Numbered from the stretch's first letter, positions 44,064-64,000 are shown. The stretch: 64,000 nt of DNA from Candidatus Saganbacteria bacterium (GCA_009772965.1 WPAF01000002.1:54199-118198), one strand, 5' to 3'. The notes: generated by a model from the letters alone, not told the origin. Translations and numbers: made by a program.

Positions 44064-44101
44064 GGAGATATTATATCAAAAAGGGAGCAAGAATTCGCTG
44101 T

Positions 44102-44799: not shown

Positions 44800-44886
44800 C
44801 TATATTATTATATCATTCAAAATAATTTTAAAGAAGTAAAATATTTTCGTAAAAAAGAATAAATCCCTAAGGGTATATGTTCCGTA

Positions 44887-46731: not shown

Positions 46732-46734
46732 GTG

Positions 46735-48183: not shown

Positions 48184-48825
48184 TTAGATGGAGGAGGTTT
48201 CCAGAAGATAGCCTTTTACTCTTTTTTCAAAATCTTTTTTAATAACAGGGAGGGCAACTTTATTTCCTTTGGTAAATAATATCTCAGTGTAGTTTATATC
48301 GTCGAAACTGACTAAAGCTTTCAGATAAACGGCGGCATCAAAGCTTGTGTACTTCTTTTTGCAGTTTTCTATTATTTCTTTTAGGGAAGTTTTCTTGAAA
48401 ATATAATAGAGATCTACATAATCTTTAAATTCTGCCCGGAGCAAAGCGCAAATTTTCATGCAGGCAATGTCCATTGGATCTGCAATATTAAAAACCCCAA
48501 AATCCAGACATGGCCTTAAAAGGTTTTCTTTGATACAAAAAAAAGAAACTTTTATTTCATCAGCAACAACTAGATTTAATGTTTTATTACTAGCCTGTAT
48601 GACTTCTATTGAATAACCATTGAAAATTTCCCTAATTTCCCTTAAAAGATCTTCGGGGTTAAAAACCTTGTTTGTAAAAAAGTCAAAATCGATAGAATCC
48701 CGATGTCCTAATTGTAATGCCAACCCTGTTCCTGCTGCAAGATAGAAGCGGTCTTTGAAATCCTTGAACAAAGGAAGGATCTCTTTTCTTTTTTTATCCA
48801 AGATTTCAAGGTGTTTTTCTGTCAT
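48184..48825 (-). CDS. Third AbiEii-like nucleotidyltransferase (short)
   Basis: From the ATG at 48825: MTEKHLEILDKKRKEILPLFKDFKDRFYLAAGTGLALQLGHRDSIDFDFF matches the AbiEii/DUF1814 core. About 213 aa. Confidence 0.6.
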   Translation of the reverse strand: MTEKHLEILDKKRKEILPLFKDFKDRFYLAAGTGLALQLGHRDSIDFDFFTNKVFNPEDLLREIREIFNGYSIEVIQASNKTLNLVVADEIKVSFFCIKENLLRPCLDFGVFNIADPMDIACMKICALLRAEFKDYVDLYYIFKKTSLKEIIENCKKKYTSFDAAVYLKALVSFDDINYTEILFTKGNKVALPVIKKDFEKRVKGYLLETSSI

Positions 48826-49084
48826 GTTTAATACCAAAAAATATCCGCCAGAGGTTATTGCTGCGTTTATCAAGCTGCTTGCCGCCAAAAGACAAAACGT
48901 AGTTTTTTATTGAGGATTTATCCGAATTTTTAAAAAGCCAATGGATTGCAGGTATGCTGCCGTAGCTTAAAATCCGGCTAAAAATAAGCTTATAATTTTG
49001 GGAAAAAGAAAGTTTATCCAGATTTACATCCCAGAAATATTTTTTAAATTCTTTAGGAAGCTTTTTTTCTCTTTTTAATGACAT
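48806..49084 (-). CDS. Small basic protein, putative cognate partner of the NTase (unknown family)
   Basis: 92 aa ORF directly upstream of, and overlapping by 20 nt, the AbiEii-like gene. No recognisable motif. Confidence 0.3.
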   Translation of the reverse strand: MSLKREKKLPKEFKKYFWDVNLDKLSFSQNYKLIFSRILSYGSIPAIHWLFKNSDKSSIKNYVLSFGGKQLDKRSNNLWRIFFGIKHDRKTP

Positions 49085-49428: not shown

Positions 49429-49472
49429 GGTGGGGTACCCAGGTTAAAGATACCCCACCGCTTGCGGTGGGG
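49429..49472. other. Overlapping alternative GC-rich hairpins (possible RNA switch or terminator element)
   Basis: GGTGGGGTA(49429-37)...TACCCCACCGC(49451-61)..GCGGTGGGG(49464-72). The middle segment can pair with either flank, giving mutually exclusive stems of 8-9 bp each. Confidence 0.3.
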
Positions 49473-49599: not shown

Positions 49600-50091
49600 T
49601 TATTTTACAATTTTTGCCCAAACGGCATCAATTGCGGCTTTATCTGCCGAAGAATTGACTTTATCTAATCCGTCTGTATCATTTCCTTTTTCTGCCCATC
49701 TAACAATAATGGCGTATTTTAATTCATATGGATCTATAGTTGCTCCCTTTTTAATGGGTTTGCTGCCACCATTAGTTAAAGTGCCGTTTATAGTTATTAA
49801 AGCTGGACGGGAACCTGAAAGCTTTTTATCTCCGAGCAAACGGGCAATGTTTGCTAGTAGGGTTGGGTAACCGCTGTAAGGATTTTGCATCCAGCTTCTC
49901 ATATTAAATTTTTGAGAAGGGGTGTCTGTTAAATTTATCCCTTTTGCCCGTGCCGCTTTCTCAATGTTATTATAAGCGCCACCCTTAGCTGCTTTAACTA
50001 TTTCACTTTCCTTGGTAATATCAACATTAGCTGCTGTTTTAGTTTGATACAGTATTGACTGTATAGATTGTATCCCGTTAATTTCACTCAT
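49600..50091 (-). CDS. Hypothetical 163-aa protein, last gene of the large minus-strand cluster
   Basis: Intact ORF. Gly/Ala/Lys-rich, no TM segment and no recognisable domain. Separated by 50 nt from the upstream GH116-like gene. Confidence 0.4.
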   Translation of the reverse strand: MSEINGIQSIQSILYQTKTAANVDITKESEIVKAAKGGAYNNIEKAARAKGINLTDTPSQKFNMRSWMQNPYSGYPTLLANIARLLGDKKLSGSRPALITINGTLTNGGSKPIKKGATIDPYELKYAIIVRWAEKGNDTDGLDKVNSSADKAAIDAVWAKIVK

Positions 50092-50141
50092 TTTTTTCCT
50101 CCTAATTGTTTATTGATTTAATCAACAAGTCGACCTTAGCG

Positions 50142-53028
50142 CTATTGCCCTTGCTGATTTCCTTTTAAAACCAAGTATACCTGCCAAATGGAAAGATAAC
50201 GATAATAAGTCCTAGCCCTGTATCCATACATAGGCCCGTTGCCAATACCGGGTTCAACGGTATAAGCTTCAGGCCATAATCCCCAATTGTTAGCTTGATT
50301 AACTGCTAAATTGTAAGTTCCATATACAGTTTGCCAACCCTCTCTTTTTAAACCATAGGCAAGGAGACATGCGCCTAGTGCATAACTGCTGCCGAGCCAA
50401 ACTTCCCTTTCTTGTTCGCCATTGATTAATTTACCGTTTCTGGTGCCATTTACTGCACCGATAAATCCCCTTGCAAATCCTCTAACGCCGAAATTTGCAA
50501 CATTGTTTTTAAAGATTGTTTGCAAATGGCTTATTAGCATATTTCTTGGGAGAATCTCTCCTAATCCAGATATTTTTCCATATAAAAACGGCAGGACATC
50601 CGAAAAAACATCAGTCGAATTTTGTGAAAGATTAAAGTATCCTTTTTGATTCCAAAGAGCTTTTGTAAAATTAGATTTACCTTTTTCGTACCAACTCGAC
50701 AGTTCTGCTTCAGTTTTTTTATCCCCCATAAGCTTTGCCATTTCAATGCCGGCTTTTAGGGCATAGAGCCACATTGCGCTGGTATAAGTCATAGCCCCTT
50801 TTACATTCCAGTTGTCATAGGTTTGATCTGGAATACCAAGGTGAATTGGAAGGCCTAATCCCTTTGTGTCGAATCTTTTCGCATACCTTAATGCGGCAAT
50901 AACTCCTCCGTAAACTGACTGGATAAAGGATGTATTTTTTTTGCCTGATAAAACAAAATTTCTCCAGGCTTCAAGCGGAACGCACATTGATAATTCAGAC
51001 CAGACATTGGGGTTTTGGTGGTCATAAGAATTGTAGTCCAAAGCCGGATCGCTGTCTGGGGCGCCTATGTCATGTGGTGTCGCGTCTTTAATTTTTTTGG
51101 CATCAATATATACCTGTGCTAATAATTTGGCCTCATCTGTGGGCTTGCCTGACCTTATGAAATATTGATAAATCGCTTCCTTTTTTTGCTCGGTTGTTTT
51201 TAGTTTGTCAAAATTGGGAATTTTTTGGGCAAACTCGTTATAAGCAATCAAAGTCAAATCTCTTTTTCCGATTGCTCTTGAGTAATGAGCCATTAAATTG
51301 TTATGGAGCTTTGGCCAGAGCAAAGCTCTTGCCGCGGCGTAAATGCCGACATCCCTGGTTTCAGTATGCCGATAATCCATGCGGTTGCTTTCTCCCATAA
51401 TATGGAGGTTCCCCGCATTTGGGATATTTCCCCAATAAACCGCGCCGCTTTGTAAAAGAGATAATGAATTTATCAGCTCGCCCTTGAACCAATTTGGAAG
51501 TTTGTTATCGGTTAATATGGTTTTTTGCCAATTGCGGATTTGGGTTTGCCAGTTATCATAATTATCCAGTGCGTATTTTGCGATTGCAACCGCATTTTGG
51601 CCGGAGTTCCCAAAATATTTTGTGTATTGCTTATCGTATACAATTCTTTCTTTTTTACTTGCATCTTTGAAGCCAAAAGCGGTTTTTGGAAAATCATAAA
51701 CAAAAGCAATCGGGATATTTCTAACTTCACCCGCTTTTAAGCTGAATTTTATCGCAATCGCGCCAGCCAGCGAATCATTTGCATTTGCTTTGGCTGTATT
51801 ATTTGTATTGGAAAGTTCGCCGTTTCTATAAAATCCTGATACTTCCCGTCCATTGCCATTTGCGTTAAAGCGAGAAACGTAGGTTATTTTAATGCCCGGA
51901 ACTTTTTTTATGGCAATTGCTATTTGCCCTTTACTGCTGATGGTTTGCGGGTTCCCCGTCAAAAATCAGGTAAAAATAATTTTGGTCTTCGACGATGCGG
52001 TTAAAATTTCCTAAATTGTTTGGCAAGAATTGTGTTTGGAGCATTTTCGATCTTGCACTGCCGGCAGGCTGGCCGGATTCTGGAAAAATTGAATTTATGC
52101 CGGGCAGAGTAACTTCTCTATATGCTTTTGGGTCCCAGGTATTTTCATTAGTATTTGCCCAGCCGACTAAATTTTGAAATGAAAGCATCACGGAAGATTC
52201 TACATTTTCTTTTGAGGTGTTATTCATTTGAACATTAAACATAAGCACTGGCAGAGATGATTCTTTGTGATTGCCTGGAATGATGGGGCTGCTGCTGCGG
52301 ATTGTTAAACGAACCGGGAACTCGCGGTAAACATGCCAGCTTAACGGGTAAAGAGAATGGAAGGTTGTCTTTTCAGCGTTTACGCCCCATTTCCAGCCGC
52401 TTAATTTTCCTTCCGGAGCCATTGTGTTTAATGTGCGCGAAACAACTCCTCTGCTGTTTTTAAAATATACATGGAATTGGCTGGCGGCATTTCCTTTGGG
52501 ATCAAAAATGTTTCTGCCGGGATTAATAAAATCAACAGTTGGAAATCCTCCTGCTGGCCAAAAAGTTATTCCCCCTGTACCCAGTCCGCCCAAGGGTAGG
52601 GCATATGGAATGGCGTTTCCCTTTCCATCAGTGGGAGTGCCTGTCATACGCATATATGCGATTCTATTATCACCATAGTTGCCATAAGGGATTAACCTAA
52701 CAGATGTGTCATGGGCGGCTTTTGGAATCCCTGCAGGGAGTGAAAGGCCTGGATATCCAAGTTTTTGTAAAATATATATAACAATTCGTTTTAGGTATTG
52801 TTCTTTTTCCTGGCCAGGAGTAAAAGACCTGCTTATTGCTTCTGCAATCAATTGGTTAAACTTGTTTTCATTAATTATTTTTCCGCCGGTTGCCTTTGGA
52901 GATAAATATCCTTTCTCAATTAAATGCTGTTTGTAAAATTTATTAAGAAGAAACGAAATTTGCTGGTTTATAGGAAGATTTTGGAAGTGCCTTAAAGGAA
53001 GATTGAAAACAATATTATTTATTCCCAT
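50142..53028 (-). pseudogene. GH116-family (GBA2/glucosylceramidase-like) beta-glycosidase split into two overlapping frames
   Basis: Upstream ORF (53028..51931) contains ..IPYALPLGGLGTGGITFW.., the signature of the GH116 N-terminal beta-sandwich. Downstream ORF (51962..50142, TTG start) looks like a GH116/DUF608-type catalytic (alpha/alpha)6 domain. The frames overlap by 32 nt around an A/T homopolymer-rich stretch. Confidence 0.55.
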
Positions 53029-53107
53029 TTATAACCTCCACGAATTTATAATAATACTTCGTAAGAGATTTTTGGAAATTTCAGGCTATTTTGGAATAAT
53101 AGTTAAT

Positions 53108-55291
53108 TTAAAAAGTTCCCTCAAACATTATACTATGGGATTGGCTGCTAGACCTGAATCTATCATCATAGTAATTGCCCTCATATTTGAGGGATAAATT
53201 TGGAAGTTTCCAAAATACTCCCCTAAGTCCCACCCCCCATTGCAAAGAGATAATATTTCCAAACCTGGAGTTGAAAAACGTGAATGCGGAAAACGGCTGG
53301 TTAAAAGCGGTAAATTGGTATTCTGCACCGAAGCCGAGTGAAATATAGTATCTCCAATAATTAATTTGTTCATAAGCGCCCCCGTCTTCAACCTTTTTTT
53401 CAGAATACCTCGGCCATAATCCATTGCCCGTAATCTCAAGAGGGTTATATTCAATCCCAAATCCAAGGTATGGGGAAATTTTTAATGTAGAATCATTGAT
53501 CCCAAAAGAATTTGCATATCTAAAAATAAATGGCTCAAAAGTCCAAGAAAAATTATCTTCTGGCCGGGATTCTGATGCATTTTTTAGGCTGTTTAATCTG
53601 TCTTCAGTTTTTACCTTTTTATTTGGGAATTCAGCAATATTCTGCTTGCTGGCTGTTACAAGAGGGCTTTCGCTGCCAACGGGTTTAAAAGCAAAACCCA
53701 TTGATCCCCCCGCTAAAATAAGGCCTTTTTCGCCGATAGGAAATTTATATTCACCAGCTGTTTTAACGCCAAGCACCAGGGAAGAAAATAATGAATTCTG
53801 CGGAGTTTGGGCTTGATATTTATTGCTTTCTTCGTCCCATGAATACCTATGTAATTTAATGCCAGCAAAAGTAAGCTGGGCAAACGGAGTAAACCTGAGA
53901 TTATAATGGTCCCTTTCTAATCCATATTCTGCACCAATTGATAAAGAATGGGTTTCACTAATATTAAGGCGGGGAATTTTAGCGCTGAGTGAGTCAGTTT
54001 GGAAATCAAAAGTCCTAGCGGGACTCATAGAATAATCAATATTAAGCTGTAAATTTTGGGAAAGCCTTGCCTTGCTGCTAATAGAAAAGGAAACCCCTTC
54101 TGTTAATGAAGAAGTTGCCTTCCCTGTTTGATATGAGTCTTTTACATAAGCTGTGCTAAAATTTATTTCAGCTAAAGTTCCAAAATCCTTATGTATAATT
54201 GCATACTGGGCGGCAATAAGCCTTTCTTCGATTTTACTGCGTTCCGCATCATAGGCGCTAATTGGAACTTTACTCAGTATACGCAGGGCTTTTTTGATTT
54301 CTCGTTTAGCTTCTTTGTATCTTCTAAGCTGGGCAAGGGCAGTGGCTCGCCCCGCATGCAGCTGTGCAAGTATTTTTCTGCTGTCATGGTCAAGATCATT
54401 ATGCCTAAAGAGGTTTATTCCGGCTGAGAAGTATCTTATAGCTTCCCGATAGTTTGATTTTCTAAGCCGTAAAATATCTCCCATTCCAAGAAAATATTGC
54501 ACAAAGTAACGGCGGAATGGCATTTTATCCCGCAGCATATCTGCGGTTCTTTTTGCCTGTTCATAATAATTGGTAGATTGCGGAATATTTCTCCTCCTGT
54601 AATTAAAAAGATCAGCGAGTGATAATAGGGCAGGAGTTATTATTTTTCTAAGCTTTAACCTGATATTTTTATTTGTTGGGTCTTCTAAGAAATCCTTGAA
54701 TACGGGATATTCGACGATTTTCCTATACTCAGCCAGGGCTGACCTGACTTTTCCGTTTTCAAGATAAAGCTTTCCAAAACCGTTTCTCAGCCGTAAATAT
54801 ATCTCAAGGAAAGTTTTATAAGCAGGGGTTATTAATTTATCCCCTTGGCTCTCAATATTTGCAATTGCCTTAATTAACTTTTGCTTTGCATCGCTTGACT
54901 TATCTTCACTTGGTTCTGGCTTGGTTCTTTTAAGTGCTTCTGAAATAACCATTAAAGCTTTATTGTAAATTGGTTCTGCTTCATCATATCTTGCCATTTT
55001 AAAACAATACACGTCGCCGATTGCAGAATGGATATTTGCCAAAAACTCAGATTCTTTGATTCCAAATCTTCTTATTTTTAAGGTTTTTAATGTTTTGTGG
55101 TATTCGTGAATGGCTTTATCGTATATTTTTGCCGCGATCAGGTTTCCAATAAAGCCAAAGCGAAACGCCCAGCGATTGGCGTTGATGGCAAAAAGAACTT
55201 CTTTGTTAAGCAGTTTTGGCTCGCCGTTTGCCCCTCGGCTTTTGGCAATGCTTCCCACCCAGGAGCGAGTAATATAAGAGCAGGGAGGCAA
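53108..55291 (-). CDS. TPR-repeat protein with C-terminal outer-membrane beta-barrel (BcsC/PgaA/PelB-like architecture)
   Basis: The N-terminal 380 aa form helical TPR-like repeats. The C-terminal 340 aa show an amphipathic beta-strand pattern with aromatic girdle residues and a terminal ...SIMFEGTF, typical of OMP barrels. The annotated start overlaps the upstream gene by 86 nt, so the true start may be internal. Confidence 0.55.
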   Translation of the reverse strand: MPPCSYITRSWVGSIAKSRGANGEPKLLNKEVLFAINANRWAFRFGFIGNLIAAKIYDKAIHEYHKTLKTLKIRRFGIKESEFLANIHSAIGDVYCFKMARYDEAEPIYNKALMVISEALKRTKPEPSEDKSSDAKQKLIKAIANIESQGDKLITPAYKTFLEIYLRLRNGFGKLYLENGKVRSALAEYRKIVEYPVFKDFLEDPTNKNIRLKLRKIITPALLSLADLFNYRRRNIPQSTNYYEQAKRTADMLRDKMPFRRYFVQYFLGMGDILRLRKSNYREAIRYFSAGINLFRHNDLDHDSRKILAQLHAGRATALAQLRRYKEAKREIKKALRILSKVPISAYDAERSKIEERLIAAQYAIIHKDFGTLAEINFSTAYVKDSYQTGKATSSLTEGVSFSISSKARLSQNLQLNIDYSMSPARTFDFQTDSLSAKIPRLNISETHSLSIGAEYGLERDHYNLRFTPFAQLTFAGIKLHRYSWDEESNKYQAQTPQNSLFSSLVLGVKTAGEYKFPIGEKGLILAGGSMGFAFKPVGSESPLVTASKQNIAEFPNKKVKTEDRLNSLKNASESRPEDNFSWTFEPFIFRYANSFGINDSTLKISPYLGFGIEYNPLEITGNGLWPRYSEKKVEDGGAYEQINYWRYYISLGFGAEYQFTAFNQPFSAFTFFNSRFGNIISLQWGVGLRGVFWKLPNLSLKYEGNYYDDRFRSSSQSHSIMFEGTF

Positions 55292-58200
55292 TAATTTCCG
55301 GCTGTTTTACGTCATCCGGAATATTTTCGATTTCGCTATTGATATTCCCCAAGCTGTTTAATGCCCAGGTGAGCGAACCAAATGCTCGAGTATTTATAGC
55401 TGCTAAGTTTAAAGTGTCAGGATTTCCCAACTTGATCAAATTTGTCATTATGGTATTTATTTGTTGCAAGATGGATTTGTATTGTGCCTGAGCTTTTGTT
55501 AATTCTCCATCTTCCTCAAATAATTGGCCAAGCATTACACTTGCCTCAATTCCTGCGATCTTAGCTTGGTGTTTTCCTATATCAATTAAATGTTTTATTT
55601 TGGTATTTGTATCTTTTGAGAAATCTAGAGAATTGAATAGTTCTATAACCTTAGAAAGTATAGCTTTTGTTTTTACACCGGCAGCTTTAATGACTTCGTA
55701 CGAATTGAGCTTGATCATATTTATGCTTGTTTCCGCGAGCAGAAGCAAATTATTGCTTGTTAATTGTGTGCTTTTGCTTCTTAGGGATTCTAGTAATTCA
55801 ACAGGATAGGCGGGTAATTTTGACTGATCAATTCCAGCAAAAATTATTCTATCTTGCCCTAAAACTGCCCTTAATATGTCTGAAGCAATTAGAAAGTTTT
55901 CCTTTCCTTTGCCTTCCTCAACCAATATATCTTGAATTCCGCCGCGCACTGCATAAATCATAGAGAGGATCTGAGCCCCGCGGAATGCCAGCCGGAATGA
56001 ACCTTTCTCCAATGCGCATTTTGTGTTGTTTATAATGCCATCCAATAAATCATTATTTTTCAGGAATGATTGAACTTTTCCTAATTCATTATTTCTTAAG
56101 AGAAGTTTTATTTTATATGCTGAGGTTTCAGCCAAGCCAAACATAGAAATTATCCCGCCGCGATCATTTTTTTCAGTTTTAAATTGGGTTTCTGCGGTTT
56201 TAAATGCGGTTTCAACCTGTTCTAGGTTTTCCAACTCGCGCTCAAACCTTATTTTCATGAGTTCTGCAATGCTGTATAAAAGGTTGCCTTTGGAGATGCA
56301 TAATTCGCTCAAGGCGTATTTTTGGCCGGCGTCAGGGCTATTTGCAAGCGCTCTAAATATATCAATTGCCTTGTCAAAACATCCATTTGCTTTTGTACGG
56401 TCAAGATTTTGAATATGCTGCCAGCCCGTGGTTCCATATATTTGTGCCTTAAGCATCAATAATTGCAGTTTTTGGGTTTTATTCAGCCTATTTGAAATCC
56501 CATTTGCCGCATTTTGAATATTGTTTAATTCATCAATAATAGTTTTTCCGGTTGAGGTAAAGGTGATTTTTGCAAGCGCGATTTTTGCCTCAAGGATTGA
56601 TATTTGAGCGTTATTATAATTTGTTTCATCAGAGCCGATCGTTTCAAAATCGGCAATTGCCTCACTATATCTCTCTAGATTTGCCAGCAACTCTGCCCGC
56701 CTTTGGGCAAGCGCTGAAGGAGTTAAATTTGTCTCAATTTGCATGATGAGTTTGCGATCTTCTCTTACGGGGCATTGAGATATCTTTTTATATAATTCCA
56801 ATGCGGCATTGAAATCGGCTTTTCCTTCGCCGGATTCTTCTTTTGCAATTGTTCCCCTAAACGAATGCGCCCAAGCAAGGGTTGAGAGAGATTGGTAATA
56901 GGCAAATAAGTTATGCTCTGTGCTGGTTGGCGAGCCGTTAATTCCGCAGATTGAAGTAGGAGAGCATGCATTTGGCTGTATATTCATTGTAGTATTGAAC
57001 CAGTCAACTGCCTTTTTTGCTAAAGCATATGCTTCATTTATTTTAATGAGTGTTTCTTCGGCATTTTTGGTAATTGGGTAAGATCTGCTTATCATTTGTA
57101 AAATAACATTAGCTTTTTTAGCTTGAATTCTTGCCAAAAATGACGGGCGCAATTGATATGTGCCATTTAATTTTGCTTTTGTAGAAATAATGTTGTCACA
57201 TTCATTGTTTGCTTCGGTAAAGCGCCTTGCCGTAGTTAGGGCATCAACTAAGCTCAATGAAAGCTCCATCTCGTTGGTCGCGTTTCTTTGGAGGATGTCT
57301 ATTCCTGAGATTCTAATTGGTTTTCCTTTACTTAGATTTTTATAATTATTCGAGATTTGCGACATGGCGCCGCTGAATTTATTCAGTATTGCCCAAAGAT
57401 CCGAAATAGAACCTTTAAGAGCGGTATCACTATTTAATTTGACTTCACCATGCAAAAGCCATGTGTATATTGCGGCCGCTTTTAAAGCTTCATTAGCGCC
57501 TGAGCCGGGCTCTGCTTTTTCTAGCAGGGATGCGCGCATATTGTACGCCCAGGCAAGGGTTGAGAAGAATGAATAAACTATGTCTGGCGCCATGTTGGGC
57601 GGCATATTTGACAACTGTTTTATGCATATGTCAATGGCACCCTTAATTGCGGTTTTGGCTAGGTCAGGATTTTTTAAGCTAAGTCGTTTCGCGATTTCAA
57701 TGAGTAAAAACGCGTGGATGCTGTAAGACCTGGTTTTATACATATACTTTGAAATAGTTACATCGTTATGGTCTTCAAGCCCGGTCCTTATGTTATTAAT
57801 AGTATTTGCTAAAGTGGATAGTTTTTGTTTAAGTGTGTTTTGATCAATTTTACCCGCGGCCATTTCATCGGTTATTATTTTGTCGGGGCGGAGCATTAAG
57901 AGCTTAATGTTTTCAATTTCCATCTTAAATTGCTGATAGAGTTCTTGATTTATTTCCGCGAGTAATTTCCCCCTTATAAGGCCATTAACATATTCTGGAG
58001 AAAATCTAATTTGTTGTCTTTTAATCCAATATGAAACACCAAAATGGTTAGACAAGTCGCCATTGATCAGCCCATTATATTTATTTAATGCGAGAGAAAA
58101 ATATTTTTCTGCTTCGTCATAGTTCCGTTGTTCGCGATAATGCCGGCCTTTGGTGGAATCAATAATAGTGCTATTGCTGGCATAGGCTATAATTTGAGAC

Positions 58201-58439
58201 AAGAACCAAGGAGAATTTGACATCGATCTTCTTACAATTGAATTTTTGGCGGTGTTTTCAAAAAGCGTGTTAGCAATTGATAGCTTGCAGTAATCCCCGT
58301 CTCTTGGAAGACTGGCGGATGCGTCAAGCAAAGCCTCGAGATTCTTCTTAAGGTCCAGGTCTGTGCGCTGTGCGTCAATGACGTTCGTACCGGGTTGGGC
58401 CAGTATATTACTATCTATTTTTGAAGTTCCCGGGGGCAT
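55206..58439 (-). CDS. Large (1077 aa) alpha-helical TPR-like repeat protein
   Basis: An uninterrupted ORF with pervasive helical-repeat composition (A/L/K/E-rich; W/Y-L-G/A-Y TPR-like periodicity). No catalytic motifs recognised. Confidence 0.55.
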   Translation of the reverse strand: MPPGTSKIDSNILAQPGTNVIDAQRTDLDLKKNLEALLDASASLPRDGDYCKLSIANTLFENTAKNSIVRRSMSNSPWFLSQIIAYASNSTIIDSTKGRHYREQRNYDEAEKYFSLALNKYNGLINGDLSNHFGVSYWIKRQQIRFSPEYVNGLIRGKLLAEINQELYQQFKMEIENIKLLMLRPDKIITDEMAAGKIDQNTLKQKLSTLANTINNIRTGLEDHNDVTISKYMYKTRSYSIHAFLLIEIAKRLSLKNPDLAKTAIKGAIDICIKQLSNMPPNMAPDIVYSFFSTLAWAYNMRASLLEKAEPGSGANEALKAAAIYTWLLHGEVKLNSDTALKGSISDLWAILNKFSGAMSQISNNYKNLSKGKPIRISGIDILQRNATNEMELSLSLVDALTTARRFTEANNECDNIISTKAKLNGTYQLRPSFLARIQAKKANVILQMISRSYPITKNAEETLIKINEAYALAKKAVDWFNTTMNIQPNACSPTSICGINGSPTSTEHNLFAYYQSLSTLAWAHSFRGTIAKEESGEGKADFNAALELYKKISQCPVREDRKLIMQIETNLTPSALAQRRAELLANLERYSEAIADFETIGSDETNYNNAQISILEAKIALAKITFTSTGKTIIDELNNIQNAANGISNRLNKTQKLQLLMLKAQIYGTTGWQHIQNLDRTKANGCFDKAIDIFRALANSPDAGQKYALSELCISKGNLLYSIAELMKIRFERELENLEQVETAFKTAETQFKTEKNDRGGIISMFGLAETSAYKIKLLLRNNELGKVQSFLKNNDLLDGIINNTKCALEKGSFRLAFRGAQILSMIYAVRGGIQDILVEEGKGKENFLIASDILRAVLGQDRIIFAGIDQSKLPAYPVELLESLRSKSTQLTSNNLLLLAETSINMIKLNSYEVIKAAGVKTKAILSKVIELFNSLDFSKDTNTKIKHLIDIGKHQAKIAGIEASVMLGQLFEEDGELTKAQAQYKSILQQINTIMTNLIKLGNPDTLNLAAINTRAFGSLTWALNSLGNINSEIENIPDDVKQPEIIASLLLYYSLLGGKHCQKPRGKRRAKTA

Positions 58440-58478
58440 TTTAACCCTCCCTTCTTTTCCTCTGCTGCTTATATATCG

Positions 58479-61400
58479 TTAAAAATGCCTTAGAATTTCA
58501 TTGATTATCTGGGTATCATAGAGGGAGATGGCCTTTTTCTTCCCAAGAAAGTTCTGTATACTCAAAATAGCGTTTTTTTGGTGTTGATCAAGCTTGCTTG
58601 TTTTTTTGTCTAAAGAAAACAAGCCGAATAGGCTGACCAGATCCCTTAGCTTGTTGTCTGGAATAAAACCTCCAGCCGCGGTCCTAACTGTTTTGACAAG
58701 GTAAGAGAATGCTTTGCGGTCATTTTGCAGGGAGCTATAAAGCATGACCGAACCGGCTAAAGCTTCAAGATTGTGGCGGTCATATTTTAATGCTTCGCGG
58801 TAATATTTTAAGGCCTTTATTATTGTTCTGTAGGTTTCTGTCTGTTGTCCTTTTTCACCTTTTAAAATGATCTTTTCCCCTGGTTCAATCATAAGCGTCC
58901 ACCAGGTAAAATTTCCTAAGAAAGCCAGGAATTTCGCATTGTTTGTGTTGTCCTTATTAAAAAGTTCCTCTATTTGGGGCGCGTATTGGCCTATTTTTTT
59001 TGCCAGTCCTAAAAAGGAATTTATAACATCGTTTGAATCTGAGTATATAAAGGAGTCTTTGTTAATCTCCTTCCCAATTACTCCTATTTTAAATGCGTGT
59101 ATAGAAATATAATTGTCACTAATAGTTTTTATTTTTTGCCCAATTCTTCTTATGTCATTATCAATGTTTGTTGTCGGCTGGTTATTGCCTTTGGCTAATA
59201 TCAAATTGTTGTTGGCTAGCATCAATTGGCTCCTGGCTGTGGAGAGTCTGTTGGTGTCCAGGACCAGGTGCATTATCTCGGTCATTAATTGGGAGATGAT
59301 TTCGATATCTTTTTTGTATTTGCTTTTTATTTTTGGATTATCTGATAGCCTATAATATTCATGAAGCGAAGCGTGGGCGGCAAGACAAACGTCTGATAGC
59401 TCGTTTATTACCCGGATTATGTGCATCGCGGGAAGGGTGGGGTTGGTAAATTTGATTGAAGGGATGCTGTTTAATAACAGGATGGCGTCCTTGAATTCTG
59501 TAAGTTTGTGAGCTTGCGCCCCCGCGCTAACCAAAACAGAACTTAACTTGAGGAGCCATTTTGTTTGAGCGACGTTCCTGGGGTCTGATGATTTGAAATG
59601 GTTAACCAATAAGCCGGCGGCTTGCGAAAAAAGCGTTTTGTCCGGCAGATCAAATCTGGCGCTGGGTTGGGAAGTAAAATTGTGTTCTAAGCTCGCGGTA
59701 ACACCCGTTATAATATTATTGAACCTGTTAAAAGTTGACAAAATAGAACTTGATATTTCTTTTAAGGTTTTTATGGCTGCTTCGTAATCCTTGCTGAAGC
59801 CAGTTACTACTATTTCTTTTTTCTTGTTTGCGGCTTCTTCTGTATAATCCCCTGTAAATTCATTATTATTCGCAAGATTGTTAATGCTTTGAATGTGTTC
59901 ATCTTTTTGTTTTTTTAATACATCAAGCTTAAACAGGAGGGTTCCCATCCAGCTATCGATTATCTCGGAAATGGATTGGTAGTTTTTGGTGGTGTTCACC
60001 TCTTCCACCAGCGCTTGTTTAAAAGCATATTCAGCAATAGAGCAGGCAGCAATAATCTTCTGGTATTCATTAACCAAATTTGCTTGTCTTTGCTCATATG
60101 ATTCTCCGCTGTTATGTATATCTTTTTGATTTAACCAGTAAAGATGAAACGGGTCGGAAAATTTCCTTCTCTGAAAATCATCATTTAAGTCAAAAATTCT
60201 TCTTTGCAGAATACGGGCAATTTTATATAAAATATGTGCTTTTGCTTGAGTAGGGAATTGGGATTTATAAATCTCAAAGACTTTTAGCAAATCTTTGATG
60301 GGAGGGTTGGAGGGAAGGTTTTTGATTAATCCTTTCTCTCTTAACTTTTCAATTACCGGATGGTTTTGCTCAAGGATAACTGCCGCGAGATTAAAAGCGT
60401 CTGAATAGTTGTATTGCTTTCGCGGGAATTCAATGGTTTTATTGTTTGGGAGCATAGTGAAATGATTTACAGAATAACCGCTGGCGGCAGTGTCAATAAT
60501 TTCACTTATGACCTGGACGATAAAAGCCTGCTGAGGAATAGGTGTGTTCCCATGTTCTCCGGAAAATCCAATGTTATATACATGCTCCATCAATTTATTG
60601 GGCCAGGAAGATAAGCTGTTCTTGCTGTTTTCTAATTCAACAAGCAGGAGGTTTTCCTGGCTTTGGGCCAGAGTAAAACGCCGGCTCCGGTTCAATTCTT
60701 GTATGTAAGCAAGGCGCAGGATCATTTTTATGCGCGTGCATTTGTGATCCAATTCAAGAAACCATTTGAACCGGTCTTCAATTTCAGTTGATAAGACATT
60801 TAGGGTTTCTAAAATATTTTTTAGGCGGTTTATGGCAAGGGTAAAGATAAATTGATCCGCGGGTCCTTTAAGGCTCTGGGTAAAAAGAATGAGGTTCCGG
60901 TAAGCCTCAGATGCTTCATCATAACGCCCAACACCCAGGCAAGATTCCGCAAAGTTAAACTGGGCAAGAATGGTTTTGTCATTAATTGCAGCCTTTTTAT
61001 AATAGTGGTATCTTCTTTCCGCCTCTATCGCCATAACTGGTTTTTCTTCTATATCGCTCTTAAAAACATGCCGAGCGATTAAAATTCCGGGGAACAATAT
61101 GTCATCTCTTGCCATTTTGGCAAAATAGTCAACGTCTTCCATGCCCAATAAAATATGATTAAACGGTTCATCTGAAAGGGGTTGGGGAGTACGATTAATT
61201 ATTTTACCACGCGCAACTATTGACGGGCTTATCTTCTTATTAAAAGCGAGCTCAAGCATTGAAGCGGCGCGCAAAAAAAGCATAGTATTGTAATATTGCG
61301 GCCCTTTTTTGCCTTTTGAATCAATATAATCGTAAACGCTCTTAGTTGATATATATTTGTTAAGTTCATTAATGAATTGAGTATAAGCTTCGGCTTTTTC

Positions 61401-63188
61401 TTCTTGGCTTGTGGTATTGAAAGAGCTCACTGCCGCGTGCGCCGCAAGATAACTTATTCGGGAGATTATGTTGCTGTAATTGCCCGCTTTAACGTCCTTT
61501 GGTTTTTTCTTGTCAATATATGAAGTGAGTAAAGCATACGCCTTGTGGGTGGTTTTAAACTTTTTAGCAACGCCATCCATAGCTTCATCGTTGTAATTTA
61601 ATAAATAGACCGCCAGTTCAATTAAAATCCTTATGGCGTCATATCCTTCTGTTGCGCCCAGATTTGCTGCCTTAACATTTGTTCTGATGGTTAACCTGCC
61701 GGTTTCCGGGTCAATTCCCAGCTCAACCTGGTCGGGGAAAAAGTTAGTTAACGAGTAAGCACCTATTTTTTTCATTATCAGATCATATATGTTTTTGTTA
61801 ATATCAAAAGAGCCGTCCTGGTTTTCAATGAAGGAGCGGTCCTGAATAAGTGAAAAATAGTAGCCATTATTGGTTAATTTTGGTTTTATAGCTTTGGATT
61901 TTTTATTGGCTTTGGTTCGGCTTAATCTAGTAAGGGCTAACAGCTCTTTGTCTGTCACAGGAATTTTGCGCATTAAACTTTCAAATATTTTATATTGGGG
62001 ACCGTCAAGCCGAACATATTTCCCGTCCCCGCTTGTTATTTTGCTGTCTTCAATTTGACGATATAAGTTGTGGGCAAAGTTATAAGAAGCTTTGATGATA
62101 TCAAAACTATCGGAAACCAGCTGATACCAGAAATCCTTGTCTTTGTTGTCATACGCGGCAATTTTCATAATGACATTCAGGCAGTTATATGAAGGGTTGA
62201 CGGTGTAATTGTGGTTGAATCCAGGGCCGCCCCAGGAGGGGAGATCTCCCACGCGGATAAACATTCTAACAATTTCATTGGACTTATTTTTGATCACTTC
62301 AACATCATATGTTTTTAGCCCTTCTATCATAAAATCGAGGAGGGAGCTGATAGTAAAATTGGGCCTACTGCCAAAGCTTCGCATTCGCAGCCCTGTCAAC
62401 TTATCCTTAATAGGATCCGGAAAGTTAAAGGCGGCCGAAGCACTGAATATCTTTAGATTTTGCAATTGTTTAATTGTCATGAGCGCGTCTATAAAAATTA
62501 GATCTGCGTCAGAAGCGGAGGTCTCTTCATCTTTGCTTTGAAAATATACCCCTTTTTGCTCCTGGCTATAATAACAGCGCCACCCCATATTCCCGTATTT
62601 GTTTAACATGGTGAGCGCCCCGCGGATCAAGCCAAAAGCGACAGTCTCATATTTCTTTATTAGTTCAGTTTTAGCATCTTCTTTCATATTCTTTGAATGG
62701 TGAATTAGTAAAGCGGCGTTTGCCACCGCCTGGAGGCCGTAGGCTATACCTTCTGAAACAATTTGTCCTCCCTGGGTGGGGGATTCAACATAATAAATTG
62801 GCTCATTGTCGCTTCCGGCTATCCTCAAAAAATAACCGCTGTAATTAATTTTGCTGTTGTTTATAACGACTTTACCTTCATCATTTATTTCAAAGTTTTT
62901 AAGCAGGCTCTGGTTGAGGCCTTGAGTTAAATGGGCCATTAGCTTTCCTTGATTGAGCGCGGATCTTCCTGTGTCTTTATTAATATCCATATTTTCTGTA
63001 TTTGGATCCCCAGCATCTATGGATTTACTGGTTATACTGCTTTGTTGGACTGGGGGATTAATAATTGACAGGACATAATTAATTCCCAGTCCGCCCGCGG
63101 CTACTCCGCCCGCGACCAGAATTGGTTTTATTACTTTCGTAAGTGTTATTCTGCCAACTGAAAGGCCCAAGCCTCTAAAAAACCCCAT
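58479..63188 (-). CDS. Giant (1569 aa) membrane-anchored protein: N-terminal GH8-like glycoside hydrolase domain fused to about 1100 aa of helical repeats
   Basis: N-terminal TM helix (ILVAGGVAAGGLGINYVLSII). GH8 signature blocks appear in the correct order and spacing: IVSEGIAYGL (SEGQxYGM, catalytic Glu), SASDADLIFIDAL (ASDADxxIAxAL) and TVNPSYN (NPSY). The rest is helical TPR-like. Confidence 0.6.
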   Translation of the reverse strand: MGFFRGLGLSVGRITLTKVIKPILVAGGVAAGGLGINYVLSIINPPVQQSSITSKSIDAGDPNTENMDINKDTGRSALNQGKLMAHLTQGLNQSLLKNFEINDEGKVVINNSKINYSGYFLRIAGSDNEPIYYVESPTQGGQIVSEGIAYGLQAVANAALLIHHSKNMKEDAKTELIKKYETVAFGLIRGALTMLNKYGNMGWRCYYSQEQKGVYFQSKDEETSASDADLIFIDALMTIKQLQNLKIFSASAAFNFPDPIKDKLTGLRMRSFGSRPNFTISSLLDFMIEGLKTYDVEVIKNKSNEIVRMFIRVGDLPSWGGPGFNHNYTVNPSYNCLNVIMKIAAYDNKDKDFWYQLVSDSFDIIKASYNFAHNLYRQIEDSKITSGDGKYVRLDGPQYKIFESLMRKIPVTDKELLALTRLSRTKANKKSKAIKPKLTNNGYYFSLIQDRSFIENQDGSFDINKNIYDLIMKKIGAYSLTNFFPDQVELGIDPETGRLTIRTNVKAANLGATEGYDAIRILIELAVYLLNYNDEAMDGVAKKFKTTHKAYALLTSYIDKKKPKDVKAGNYSNIISRISYLAAHAAVSSFNTTSQEEKAEAYTQFINELNKYISTKSVYDYIDSKGKKGPQYYNTMLFLRAASMLELAFNKKISPSIVARGKIINRTPQPLSDEPFNHILLGMEDVDYFAKMARDDILFPGILIARHVFKSDIEEKPVMAIEAERRYHYYKKAAINDKTILAQFNFAESCLGVGRYDEASEAYRNLILFTQSLKGPADQFIFTLAINRLKNILETLNVLSTEIEDRFKWFLELDHKCTRIKMILRLAYIQELNRSRRFTLAQSQENLLLVELENSKNSLSSWPNKLMEHVYNIGFSGEHGNTPIPQQAFIVQVISEIIDTAASGYSVNHFTMLPNNKTIEFPRKQYNYSDAFNLAAVILEQNHPVIEKLREKGLIKNLPSNPPIKDLLKVFEIYKSQFPTQAKAHILYKIARILQRRIFDLNDDFQRRKFSDPFHLYWLNQKDIHNSGESYEQRQANLVNEYQKIIAACSIAEYAFKQALVEEVNTTKNYQSISEIIDSWMGTLLFKLDVLKKQKDEHIQSINNLANNNEFTGDYTEEAANKKKEIVVTGFSKDYEAAIKTLKEISSSILSTFNRFNNIITGVTASLEHNFTSQPSARFDLPDKTLFSQAAGLLVNHFKSSDPRNVAQTKWLLKLSSVLVSAGAQAHKLTEFKDAILLLNSIPSIKFTNPTLPAMHIIRVINELSDVCLAAHASLHEYYRLSDNPKIKSKYKKDIEIISQLMTEIMHLVLDTNRLSTARSQLMLANNNLILAKGNNQPTTNIDNDIRRIGQKIKTISDNYISIHAFKIGVIGKEINKDSFIYSDSNDVINSFLGLAKKIGQYAPQIEELFNKDNTNNAKFLAFLGNFTWWTLMIEPGEKIILKGEKGQQTETYRTIIKALKYYREALKYDRHNLEALAGSVMLYSSLQNDRKAFSYLVKTVRTAAGGFIPDNKLRDLVSLFGLFSLDKKTSKLDQHQKNAILSIQNFLGKKKAISLYDTQIINEILRHF

Positions 63189-63189
63189 A

Positions 63190-63969
63190 TTATTTCACGC
63201 TCCCGTATGCCCAAATGTGGTTTTTCTCTTCCCATTGTTTCGCGTCTTCTATTGGGCTCACCCCTTGATTTAAACCATACCCCCTAATGGTGTAGTATGA
63301 TGCCAGGCCGATCCAAAAGATCATGGAAGCGATCCCCAGCTCATAAAAGTCAACATACTTGGCCCCAGAAAAAACATGCCGGCCCAACCTATAAATTGCT
63401 AAGAAGTTAAGAACAGTTAACAATTTGCTCCTGCCCATATATTCTTCACTAAAGAGTTTTTTTCCAAAGCTTTTTACCTTCATCGGCTGTTCTAACGGGT
63501 CGGTTACATTGAATCCGGCTTTTTCATTGTGCCAAAACCTTCTCATCACATAATTGTAGTTAAAATGAAGCATAACCTTTTCATACCCCATGTTTGAGGT
63601 AACTCCAGTCCAGGAAGATCCCGCGGATATCCTGGAATATCTTAATACCCCTTCAATCATCAGATAGTTGACAAAACCGGTTTCAATTATCCAGTTGAGC
63701 GGTTCTTTAAATGTGGTCCCAAAGGCGTTGGGATTGGGCATCATTATGGAAGGGTGCCCAAAAAAGATAAAACCCAGCGAAGCATAAGCATTGGCCAAAC
63801 CGGGCATCCCAAACATGTTGTATAGCGGCCCCTGTATAAGGTCAAACGCGGTTTTTGCCGGCATGACTTTGCGGTATTTCCAGCAGTATTTTACGGCCAT
63901 TCTAATAAGCGCGGCGTTCATTGCCATCCAGCGAAGTTTTTGGAACATATCAGCGTTAAATTCAAGCAT
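63190..63969 (-). CDS. Hypothetical 259-aa protein at the head of the cluster (aromatic-rich)
   Basis: ORF with an ATG at 63969. W/Y/F/G/N-rich and possibly beta-rich. Its stop is 1 nt from the start of the giant gene, consistent with translational coupling. The region upstream lies outside the window. Confidence 0.4.
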   Translation of the reverse strand: MLEFNADMFQKLRWMAMNAALIRMAVKYCWKYRKVMPAKTAFDLIQGPLYNMFGMPGLANAYASLGFIFFGHPSIMMPNPNAFGTTFKEPLNWIIETGFVNYLMIEGVLRYSRISAGSSWTGVTSNMGYEKVMLHFNYNYVMRRFWHNEKAGFNVTDPLEQPMKVKSFGKKLFSEEYMGRSKLLTVLNFLAIYRLGRHVFSGAKYVDFYELGIASMIFWIGLASYYTIRGYGLNQGVSPIEDAKQWEEKNHIWAYGSVK

Positions 63970-64000
63970 GGCGTCGTTTTGCTGGCGTAGTCCCCTAACG

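What the first reader, a model, noticed from the sequence alone, without database searches (positions are those of the whole stretch)
49600..63969. Co-directional cluster resembling a polysaccharide processing/export apparatus (GH8 fusion, TPR, TPR-beta-barrel, GH116), with no synthase in view
Six consecutive minus-strand genes with tiny intergenic gaps or overlaps encode the following, in order:
- an aromatic-rich unknown protein;
- a 1569-aa TM-anchored GH8-like domain fused to helical repeats;
- a 1077-aa TPR-like protein;
- a TPR + C-terminal beta-barrel OMP;
- a split GH116-like glycosidase;
- a 163-aa unknown protein.
The combination of a periplasmic glycoside hydrolase, TPR scaffold and TPR-porin is the defining logic of synthase-dependent exopolysaccharide systems: cellulose (BcsZ/BcsC), PNAG (PgaB/PgaA), Pel (PelA/PelB) and alginate (AlgL/AlgK/AlgE). 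Here the parts are arranged differently. The hydrolase is fused to over 1000 aa of repeats, the TPR is split over two genes, and no GT2 synthase or c-di-GMP receptor is present in the window. This may be an undescribed variant, or the synthase lies beyond the window edge.
Basis: partly seen in the sequence, partly recalled or inferred. Interest (0 to 1): 0.8.

Follow-up and report, generated by a model that had tools for sequence, protein, structure and literature searches.

The report
Divergent cellulose-synthase-like export cluster, Margulisbacteria
This gene cluster from an uncultured Saganbacteria genome looks like a very divergent, so far unannotated version of the bacterial cellulose synthesis-and-export machine. 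Its missing "synthase" is a 2,616-residue membrane protein whose tail is the first gene in the window.

Summary
The ORFs are real, but three details of the observation change.

2. The 1077-aa and 727-aa genes are one 1,807-aa TPR + probable β-barrel gene. The window lacks 92 nt that two other assemblies have.
3. GH116 is frameshifted, and it and the 163-aa gene are not conserved parts.

The 1569-aa protein has a membrane anchor, all four BcsZ/GH8 motifs including both catalytic residues, and about 900 aa of helical repeats. Proteins in the same gene position elsewhere hit Pfam GH8 confidently.

The order sugar-nucleotide enzyme, giant, GH8-repeat protein, TPR-barrel recurs in at least nine further distinct loci. 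Every named member is Saganbacteria or Margulisiibacteriota and is annotated hypothetical.

Best reading: a new variant of synthase-dependent β-glucan secretion. Two points stay open: no donor-binding half of the transferase was found, and the barrel protein has no signal peptide.

The parts
63190..64000 (-). C-terminal 269 residues (aa 2348-2616) of the 2,616-aa giant membrane protein FD145_282. This is the end of its BcsA-like half-domain: the QxxRW helix, aromatic-rich helices and gating-loop motif. The gene continues about 7 kb beyond the window.
63928..63942 (-). QKLRW, the QxxRW signature (giant aa 2367-2371). Q, R and W are nearly invariant in 22 family members.
   Evidence: The role of the motif in BcsA is taken from PMC6821405.
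63502..63513 (-). FNVT (giant aa 2510-2513). It aligns with the FxVTxK gating-loop motif of BcsA; the Lys is not conserved here.
58479..63188 (-). 1,569-aa protein FD145_281: N-terminal membrane anchor, BcsZ-like GH8 domain with about 190 aa of insertions, then about 900 aa of helical/TPR-like repeats.
63060..63125 (-). Hydrophobic signal-anchor (aa 22-43) preceded by R/K residues. Homologues carry twin-arginine-like or lipobox-like signals instead, so the bulk of the protein should lie outside the cytoplasm.
61209..62831 (-). GH8-like domain (about aa 120-660) with SEG (62748-62756), SDAD (62502-62513), NPSY (62187-62198) and YDAIR (61629-61643).
   Evidence: Motifs are collinear with E. coli BcsZ E55/D116/NPSY/D243. 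They are invariant in 6 homologues. PF01270 hits 2 of 6 homologues, best E 4.5e-7, and hits confidently in L025/L026/L027. hhalign against BcsZ: Prob 20.7%, E 0.0011.
53108..58439 (-). One gene for a 1,807-aa TPR-rich protein with a C-terminal β-rich, probable outer-membrane barrel domain. In this assembly it is broken into 1077-aa and 727-aa ORFs by a missing 92 nt between 55250 and 55251.
   Evidence: P0007 1807 aa against P0008 and P0009. TPR hits.
53111..54148 (-). C-terminal roughly 345 aa: probable β-barrel ending in ...MFEGTF.
   Evidence: Sub-threshold Autotransporter and OMP_b-brl hits. β-amphipathic windows exceed shuffles. Terminal Phe conserved in 3 of 3 complete homologues. No structure model was made.
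50142..53028 (-). GH116 β-glycosidase gene interrupted by a frameshift between 51965 and 51931. It has no signal peptide and is an accessory, non-conserved neighbour.
   Evidence: The same frameshift is in L001. GH116 is absent next to the cluster in L008, L009, L011, L013-L015, L025 and L026.
49600..50091 (-). 163-aa protein FD145_276. It has no detectable family and no counterpart in related loci. It is the last gene before a terminator-like hairpin.
49453..49472 (-). Terminator-like GC-rich hairpin about 130 nt after the 163-aa gene; a possible end of the transcription unit.
   Evidence: This is a single consensus match, no more frequent than in shuffles.

Best explanation
The region is the downstream two-thirds of an operon for a highly divergent, Margulisbacteria-specific synthase-dependent β-glucan (probably cellulose-like) synthesis and export system.

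**Proposed mechanism**
1. A UDP-sugar pyrophosphorylase-family enzyme, encoded just beyond the window, supplies UDP-glucose. In relatives it is accompanied by phosphoglucomutase. (Inferred.)
2. The 2,616-aa inner-membrane giant polymerises and translocates the chain through its C-terminal BcsA-like half-domain. That half-domain has the ED catalytic base, the QxxRW acceptor-stacking Trp, an FxVT gating loop and aromatic-rich helices. (Homology shown; activity and product inferred.)
3. The membrane-anchored GH8 domain of the 1,569-aa protein trims or releases the chain as BcsZ does. Its roughly 900-aa helical extension, together with about 1,400 aa of TPRs in the next protein, forms a periplasm-spanning scaffold. 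(Inferred.)
4. The C-terminal β-barrel of the 1,807-aa protein is the outer-membrane exit, following BcsC logic. (Inferred.)

The frameshifted GH116 and the 163-aa gene are local add-ons, not core parts.
For: **Synthase**
- In 22 family members the nearly invariant residues are E, D (ED), N, D, and Q, R, W (QxxRW).
- The spacing from the catalytic Asp to the Trp is 40 residues (D2331 to W2371). This equals Asp343 to Trp383 in R. sphaeroides BcsA (PMC6821405).
- hhalign of the family profile places ED on TED, QKLRW on QRxRW and FNVT on FxVT in one alignment. Against E. coli BcsA alone the support is weak.
- Against a 9-sequence BcsA profile hhalign gives Prob 68-82%, E 5e-5 to 1e-5. Reversed and 20 column-shuffled controls give Prob ≤0.5%.
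- 4 of 22 members hit Pfam PF13632 Glyco_trans_2_3, best E 2.8e-5, over exactly this stretch.

**GH8**
- Four motifs collinear with BcsZ are present, including the catalytic Glu55 and Asp243 equivalents. The catalytic roles are taken from PMC11379886.
- PF01270 hits occur in proteins at the same gene position elsewhere. These proteins are homologous to the window protein, E 7e-32.
- Export signals are present in GH8 homologues.

**Synteny**
- The order giant, GH8-repeat protein, TPR(-barrel) is found in the window and at least nine further distinct loci: L003, L008, L009, L011, L013, L014, L015, L025 and L026.
- Directly upstream are UDPGP (L008, L010, L014, L015, L025), PGM + UDPGP (L025) or NTP_transferase (L016, L026).

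**Barrel**.
Against: - No donor-binding half of the GT-A fold (DD, DxD) could be found by profile comparison anywhere in the giant. DTDN 2049-2052 is only a candidate.
- All Pfam GT2 hits are below the curated cut-off, and the window protein itself has none.
- No homologue of the TPR-barrel protein has a recognisable signal peptide.
- The barrel was not modelled, and it shows no similarity to BcsC.
- No BcsB, PilZ or other c-di-GMP module was seen in the proteins scanned.
- Catabolic and uptake genes lie nearby: SBP, GH42 and GH94 in the window; GH5, ABC permeases, LacI and GH116 in L010.
- The product and its linkage are unknown. GH8 also includes chitosanases, xylanases and licheninases (my knowledge of CAZy).
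Confidence: 0.65

Rival explanations
1. It is a β-glucan capture and degradation (utilisation) apparatus. GH8 and GH116 degrade external glucan, the TPR-barrel imports oligosaccharides, and the giant is an anchor or transporter rather than a synthase.
For: - Two glycoside hydrolases lie in the window cluster.
- Neighbours in the window include a sugar-binding protein, GH42 and GH94.
- L010 has GH5, two ABC permeases, a CBM-like protein, LacI and an intact GH116 within 10 kb.
- A LacI-type regulator lies upstream in L014.
Against: - The conserved neighbours are anabolic: UDPGP, PGM and NTP_transferase lie directly upstream of the giant in 7 loci.
- The catalytic synthase motifs ED and QxxRW are nearly invariant at 22-50% identity.
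- GH116 is frameshifted here and absent from most loci.
- BcsZ-type GH8 enzymes are themselves components of synthesis systems, and cellulase activity is needed for export (PMC11379886).
Confidence: 0.1
2. It is a trans-envelope machine in which the giant has kept only a BcsA-derived channel or acceptor module and is not itself a nucleotide-sugar polymerase. For example, it could be a translocase for a polymer made by another enzyme, or a pseudo-enzyme scaffold for a surface structure.
For: - No donor-binding half of the GT-A fold was detected.
- About 1,900 aa of the giant has no relatives outside the family.
- Some loci encode another glycosyltransferase (Glyco_transf_5) upstream.
Against: - Near-invariance of the catalytic base Asp and of QxxRW would not be expected in a pure channel.
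- A sugar-nucleotide enzyme is always adjacent to the giant.
- Remote GT-A halves are often invisible to sequence methods, and the model for aa 1975-2300 is of low confidence.
Confidence: 0.15
3. It is the same machine, but the product is not cellulose. It could be another polysaccharide: β-1,3 or mixed-linkage glucan, a chitin/chitosan-like polymer or a xylan-like polymer.
For: [quoted passage not shown]
- CslF6 and hyaluronan synthase also appear among the fold matches.
- GlmS lies 3 kb downstream in the window.
Against: - The best fold and profile matches are to BcsA/CesA.
- The GH8 motifs match BcsZ best: NCBIfam NF008305 is the only hit.
- PGM + UDPGP point to UDP-glucose.
Confidence: 0.25

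Closest known systems
Proteobacterial cellulose secretion system BcsA-BcsB-BcsZ-BcsC (E. coli, R. sphaeroides)
   Same: - Same logic and gene order: synthase, then GH8 endoglucanase, then TPR + β-barrel.
- ED, QxxRW and FxVT motifs in the synthase with the same Asp-to-Trp spacing.
- GH8 catalytic Glu and Asp conserved.
- A long TPR solenoid precedes a C-terminal barrel that ends in Phe.
   Different: - The synthase is 2,300-2,600 aa instead of about 750-870 aa, with about 1,900 aa of family-specific sequence.
- The synthase has no detectable donor-binding half and no PilZ.
- There is no BcsB.
- GH8 is membrane-anchored, carries about 190 aa of insertions and is fused to about 900 aa of helical repeats. 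BcsZ is a free 368-aa periplasmic enzyme.
- The TPR-barrel protein is 1,800 aa instead of 1,157 aa and has no signal peptide.
- A UDP-sugar pyrophosphorylase gene is built into the operon.
HlyD-linked BcsA-like glucan synthases (e.g. Agrobacterium/Rhizobium plasmid 'cellulose synthase catalytic subunit' genes next to HlyD; cyanobacterial CesA with HlyD/TolC, the latter from memory)
   Same: Divergent GT2 β-glucan synthases that use a non-Bcs export route. This shows the synthase module is combined with different envelope partners.
   Different: Those synthases keep a complete, Pfam-recognisable GT2 domain and a normal size. Export goes through a membrane-fusion protein, not through a GH8-TPR protein and a TPR-barrel.
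Cyclic β-1,2-glucan synthase Cgs/NdvB (about 2,800 aa)
   Same: A giant multi-domain inner-membrane glucan synthase. It appears among the Foldseek matches (8rf0).
   Different: Cgs has recognisable GT84 and GH94 domains and makes a periplasmic cyclic product without an outer-membrane porin. There is no sequence similarity outside the shared GT fold region.
Pel (PelA/PelB), PNAG (PgaB/PgaA) and alginate (AlgL/AlgK/AlgE) systems
   Same: The general synthase-dependent plan: a polymer-modifying hydrolase or lyase plus a TPR scaffold plus an outer-membrane barrel.
   Different: Their enzyme families differ (GH166/CE4, GH153, PL5) and so do their synthases. The enzymes here are specifically BcsZ-like and BcsA-like.

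Membership tests
GT2 processive β-glucan synthases (BcsA/CesA type) | ED (TED) motif with the catalytic base Asp on the finger helix | tested here: met
   PSED at giant aa 2328-2331. E and D are nearly invariant in 22 members. The motif aligns with TED of BcsA. It lies 17 residues outside the window.
GT2 processive β-glucan synthases (BcsA/CesA type) | QxxRW motif at the correct distance from the catalytic Asp | tested here: met
   QKLRW at aa 2367-2371 (window 63928-63942). Q, R and W are nearly invariant. Asp-to-Trp spacing is 40 residues, as for Asp343 to Trp383 in RsBcsA (PMC6821405).
GT2 processive β-glucan synthases (BcsA/CesA type) | FxVTxK gating-loop motif after the channel helices | tested here: inconclusive
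   FNVT at aa 2510-2513 aligns with FxVT of BcsA. The Lys is replaced by Pro or other residues (FNVTDP, FNVTG). The loop has pLDDT below 50 in the model.
GT2 processive β-glucan synthases (BcsA/CesA type) | Donor-binding half of the GT-A fold with DD and DxD motifs | tested here: inconclusive
   hhalign of giant aa 1975-2320, 1590-2000 and 560-780 against the BcsA profile gives Prob ≤0.4%. Invariant DTDN (2049-2052) and FNNDS (632-636) are only candidates.
GT2 processive β-glucan synthases (BcsA/CesA type) | Score above the curated family threshold (Pfam GT2 models) | tested here: not met
   The window protein has no hit. 4 of 22 relatives hit PF13632, best E 2.8e-5. The two whose scores were listed reach 17-20 bits against a cut-off of 27.
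GT2 processive β-glucan synthases (BcsA/CesA type) | BcsA-like fold of the catalytic and channel region | tested here: met
GT2 processive β-glucan synthases (BcsA/CesA type) | C-terminal PilZ domain (c-di-GMP control; specific to BcsA) | tested here: not met
   No PilZ hit in the giant or in 22 relatives, even at E ≤ 10.
GT2 processive β-glucan synthases (BcsA/CesA type) | Polymerisation of a UDP-sugar into a secreted glycan | not testable with these tools
   Needs biochemistry.
GH8 (BcsZ-like endoglucanase) | Catalytic acid Glu in the SEG motif and the Asp of the YDAIR motif (E55 and D243 of BcsZ) | tested here: met
   E146 and D517. Both are invariant in 6 homologues, together with SAxDAD and NxSY. 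Catalytic roles are taken from PMC11379886.
GH8 (BcsZ-like endoglucanase) | Significant match to the family model | tested here: inconclusive
   Window protein: no PF01270 hit; NCBIfam BcsZ E 0.002 over 46 aa. Homologues: PF01270 E 4.5e-7 and confident precomputed hits in L025, L026 and L027, which are linked to the window protein at E 7e-32. hhalign against BcsZ gives Prob 20.7%.
GH8 (BcsZ-like endoglucanase) | (α/α)6 barrel fold | tested here: inconclusive
   AlphaFold with a 2-sequence alignment failed (pLDDT 38.5), so no fold search was possible.
BcsC-type TPR + outer-membrane β-barrel exporter | N-terminal array of TPRs | tested here: met
   TPR_2, TPR_12 and TPR_8 hits lie just above their cut-offs at several positions of the 1,807-aa protein.
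BcsC-type TPR + outer-membrane β-barrel exporter | C-terminal transmembrane β-barrel | tested here: inconclusive
   Sub-threshold Autotransporter (E 0.0018) and OMP_b-brl (E 0.0044) hits. Ten to 15 β-amphipathic segments, 2.1-3.5 sd above shuffles. Terminal Phe in 3 of 3 complete homologues. No model was made.
BcsC-type TPR + outer-membrane β-barrel exporter | Sec signal peptide | tested here: not met
   By eye, there is no hydrophobic N-terminal segment in the window protein or in 8 homologues, and no upstream in-frame start is possible. A hydropathy scan of the window protein's first 1077 aa found no hydrophobic segment.
BcsC-type TPR + outer-membrane β-barrel exporter | Sequence similarity to BcsC | tested here: not met
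   No PF05420 hit. hhalign against E. coli BcsC gives Prob 0.1%.
GH116 | N-terminal and catalytic GH116 domains in one intact reading frame | tested here: not met
   The domains are present (PF12215, and PF04685 at E 1.5e-68). They are split by a frameshift between 51965 and 51931, in both assemblies that cover it.
UDPGP (UDP-sugar pyrophosphorylase) | Match to PF01704 above threshold | tested here: inconclusive
   The 490-aa protein beyond the window scores E 0.005, 16 bits against a cut-off of 22. It is 29% identical to the L008 protein at the same gene position, which passes, as do those of L010, L015 and L025.

The most novel reading that the evidence does not exclude
The giant defines a new class of processive glycan synthase. 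Only the acceptor, catalytic-base and channel half of the BcsA fold is retained. Donor binding would be supplied by unrelated, family-specific domains, or in trans by the always-adjacent UDPGP-like protein. The synthase would be coupled to an envelope-spanning assembly in which the cellulase is built into the scaffold, and in which a signal-less 1,800-aa TPR-barrel reaches the outer membrane by an unknown route.
Probability: 0.25. Interest if true: 0.8.

Novelty: new variant of a known kind. Interest (0 to 1): 0.62.

Why it matters
- Margulisbacteria and Saganbacteria are uncultured sister lineages of Cyanobacteria. Nothing is known about their surface polymers, and every protein of this cluster is annotated "hypothetical".
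- If the reading is right, the cellulose-synthase module has been rebuilt into a giant protein with new partners. That widens the known range of synthase-dependent secretion.
- It offers a natural fusion of the BcsZ-type cellulase to the periplasmic scaffold. This bears on the open question of why cellulase activity is needed for export. In E. coli no BcsZ-BcsC contact could be detected (PMC11379886).
- It raises a concrete puzzle about how a signal-less barrel protein would be targeted.
- The family is invisible to standard annotation, so such systems are probably undercounted.

Tried and rejected
- **Pfam, NCBIfam and PDB sequence searches** of the window proteins gave almost nothing for the three large proteins.
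- **The word-index homologue search** found only one relative of the 1569-aa protein and none for the giant. The giant's 90% cluster is represented by a 53-aa fragment. A repeat search with an alignment added nothing.
- **A GTDB genome scan** found only the already known Margulisiibacteriota contig. tblastn against plasmids found nothing.
- **AlphaFold of the GH8-like domain** with 2 sequences failed (pLDDT 38.5).
- **hhalign against single sequences** was too weak: for BcsZ, and for BcsA. A 9-sequence BcsA profile built from plasmid records fixed this for BcsA.
- **The search for the donor-binding half** of the transferase was negative.
- **hhalign of the barrel against BcsC, and a PDB profile search of the barrel**, were negative.
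- **The afdb50 fold library** was unavailable.
- **First metagenome scan attempt** failed because the alignment was too diverse.
- **Rejected ideas**: that the 259-aa ORF is a separate gene; that the TPR is naturally split in this genome; that GH116 and the 163-aa gene are core components.

Full report
**Source and check of the observation**

The window is from a Candidatus Saganbacteria MAG. The 1569-aa protein is NCBI FD145_281.

Pfam confirms GH116. PF12215 positions 1-156 fall in the 365-aa ORF. PF12215 positions 186-312 plus PF04685 (E 1.5e-68) fall in the 606-aa ORF. Pfam also gives TPR hits just above threshold in the 1077-aa and 727-aa ORFs. It gives no GH8 hit for the 1569-aa protein, even for fragments at E ≤ 10. 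The 163-aa ORF and the first ORF have no hits.

**What lies beyond the window, and two artefacts**

An independent ENA assembly of the same genome (L001) is 100% identical to the window and extends 10 kb further. It shows three things.
- The "259-aa aromatic-rich protein" is the C-terminus of a 2,616-aa protein (FD145_282, KAF0135144.1). That protein is preceded by a 490-aa protein with a weak UDPGP match (E 0.005).
- The 1077-aa and 727-aa ORFs are one 1,807-aa gene. The window lacks 92 nt between 55250 and 55251 that L001 and a third assembly (L002) both contain.
- The GH116 frameshift is present in L001 as well. The two frames can only be joined between 51965 and 51931, over G4 and C3 runs.

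**The giant is the missing synthase, at least its acceptor and channel half**

An exhaustive HMMER search with its last 1,199 residues found just 22 proteins among 1.84 billion representatives. About ten are 2,274-2,468 aa giants. Several are roughly 1,000-aa proteins that share only the C-terminal module. None has a Pfam domain above threshold.

In an alignment of the 22 (A3) the nearly invariant residues are E356/D357, N381/D382, Q393/R396/W397 and a few others. In the giant these are PSED 2328-2331, QQND and QKLRW 2367-2371. An FNVT motif lies at 2510-2513. ED, QxxRW and FxVTxK are the signature of processive GT2 β-glucan synthases. The ED Asp is the catalytic base, the Trp stacks on the acceptor glucose, and aromatic residues line the channel (PMC6821405). 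The Asp-to-Trp distance here is 40 residues, the same as Asp343 to Trp383 in R. sphaeroides BcsA.

Four independent tests support the link to BcsA.
- hhalign of A3 or of four full-length giants against E. coli BcsA puts all three motifs in register, though with weak statistics.
- With a 9-sequence BcsA profile built from plasmid records, hhalign reaches Prob 68% (E 4.8e-5). For the C-terminal 300 residues alone it reaches Prob 82% (E 1e-5). A reversed template, a reversed query and 20 column-shuffled templates give Prob ≤0.5%.
- Four of the 22 members hit PF13632 Glyco_trans_2_3 over this stretch. The best E is 2.8e-5, which is below the curated cut-off.

QKLRW and FNVT lie inside the window, at 63928-63942 and 63502-63513. 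So the synthase was partly in view.

Some things were not found. No donor-binding half (DD, DxD) is detectable by profile comparison in aa 1975-2320, 1590-2000 or 560-780. Invariant DTDN 2049-2052 and FNNDS 632-636 are only candidates. Hydrophobic helices (2266-2306) sit immediately before the ED strand. There is no PilZ. The N-terminal roughly 1,340 aa form a separate module: L010 carries a second copy of the giant that is split into two genes, and this module is one of them. It has no relatives outside the family.

**The 1569-aa protein is a BcsZ-like GH8 fused to helical repeats**

Its only close relative in the word-index database is a 1490-aa Margulisiibacteriota protein at 33% identity. 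Compared with E. coli BcsZ, four motifs are collinear:
- QIVSEG (E146, matching E55)
- SASDAD (D227, matching D116)
- NPSY (331, matching 179)
- YDAIR (D517, matching D243)

Glu55 and Asp243 are the catalytic residues of BcsZ (PMC11379886). The motifs are invariant in six homologues at 29-42% identity. Two of these homologues hit PF01270, best E 4.5e-7. hhalign against BcsZ alone gives Prob 20.7% with SEG and SDAD in register.

Proteins at the same gene position in a more distant clade (L025, L026/L027) carry confident PF01270 hits. They are homologous to the window protein over 960 aa, E 7e-32. About 190 aa of insertions explain why the family model misses the window protein.

The window protein has a signal-anchor at aa 22-43. 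Homologues have twin-arginine-like (RRxFL) or lipobox-like N-termini. The enzyme should therefore face the periplasm. AlphaFold with two sequences failed (pLDDT 38.5), so the fold was not verified.

**The 1,807-aa protein**

It has TPR hits along about 1,400 aa. The last roughly 345 aa are β-rich. Evidence for a barrel is:
- sub-threshold Autotransporter and OMP_b-brl hits;
- 10-15 β-amphipathic segments, 2.1-3.5 sd above shuffles;
- a terminal Phe in all three complete homologues.

There is no similarity to BcsC. No homologue has a signal peptide. A barrel is likely but unproven, and its targeting is unexplained.

**Conservation**

The order giant, GH8-repeat protein, TPR(-barrel) is kept in L003, L008, L009, L011, L013, L014, L015, L025 and L026/L027, besides the window. 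L010 has an extra split copy of the giant.

Directly upstream there is always a sugar-nucleotide enzyme:
- UDPGP in L008, L010, L014 (UGP3-like), L015 and L025;
- phosphoglucomutase plus UDPGP in L025;
- NTP_transferase in L016 and L026.

GH116 is adjacent only in the window and lies about 10 kb away in L010. The 163-aa gene has no counterpart. All named members are Saganbacteria or Margulisiibacteriota "hypothetical proteins". Literature searches found no description of such a system.

**Interpretation**

The best-supported reading (confidence 0.65) is a lineage-specific, strongly diverged Bcs-like system. UDP-glucose is supplied, polymerised and translocated by the giant, trimmed by a tethered GH8, and passed along a long helical/TPR scaffold to a barrel exit.

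Shown: the homology signals, the motifs and the synteny. Inferred: substrate, product, topology and the role of each part.

Rivals:
- a β-glucan utilisation apparatus (0.10), favoured by nearby catabolic genes but contradicted by the anabolic conserved neighbours and the invariant synthase motifs;
- a machine in which the giant is only a channel or scaffold (0.15);
- the same machine making a different polysaccharide (0.25, a sub-variant of the best explanation rather than an exclusive alternative, so the confidences are not meant to sum to 1).

It fails several formal membership tests for BcsA, BcsZ and BcsC: curated thresholds, PilZ, signal peptide and the donor-binding half. It should therefore be described as working like a Bcs system and as a new variant, not as a member of the curated families.

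**Verdict**

Three corrections apply: the synthase is in view, the TPR split is an artefact, and GH116 and the 163-aa gene are accessory. Novelty: a new variant of a known kind. Interest: 0.62.

Noticed in passing
window 55250/55251: This assembly lacks 92 nt that two other assemblies of the same genome (L001:17939-18030, and L002) contain. The gap splits a 1,807-aa gene into the NCBI proteins FD145_280 and FD145_279.
   Followed up: yes
window 51931-51965: A frameshift in the GH116 gene lies over G4 and C3 runs. It is identical in the ENA re-assembly. It could be a real pseudogene or an error from the shared reads.
   Followed up: partly
window 48184-48888 (-) and L001:24197-24475: An AbiEii-type toxin with a DUF6922-like partner lies directly downstream of the cluster.
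   Followed up: no
window 44102-44799 (-): A HEPN / minimal nucleotidyltransferase pair (toxin-antitoxin-like) sits between GlmS and GH42.
   Followed up: no
window 39875-48114 (-): A catabolic and uptake neighbourhood: GH94 phosphorylase, GH42 β-galactosidase, GlmS and a sugar ABC substrate-binding protein. It may recycle or feed glucan metabolism, but it is not conserved next to the cluster elsewhere.
   Followed up: partly
window 4188-8603 (+): Another very large ORF (1,471 aa) lies elsewhere in the window. It was not examined.
   Followed up: no
L010:17235-24393: This locus has a second copy of the giant, split into an N-module gene (1,352 aa) and a C-module gene (1,019 aa). Stand-alone roughly 1,000-aa C-modules also exist (P0016, P0017, P0019, P0021, P0023). 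The giant is therefore built from two separable modules.
   Followed up: partly
L026:510-9856 and L016:1112-5273: In a divergent clade the giant is preceded by NTP_transferase, a 940-aa Glyco_transf_5 (starch-synthase-like) protein, an NDK/guanylate-kinase fusion and a methyltransferase. This may point to a primer or a modified product.
   Followed up: no
protein database: The giant's 90%-identity cluster is represented by a 53-aa fragment, so word-index homology searches return nothing for it. This is a technical trap for annotating this family.
   Followed up: yes
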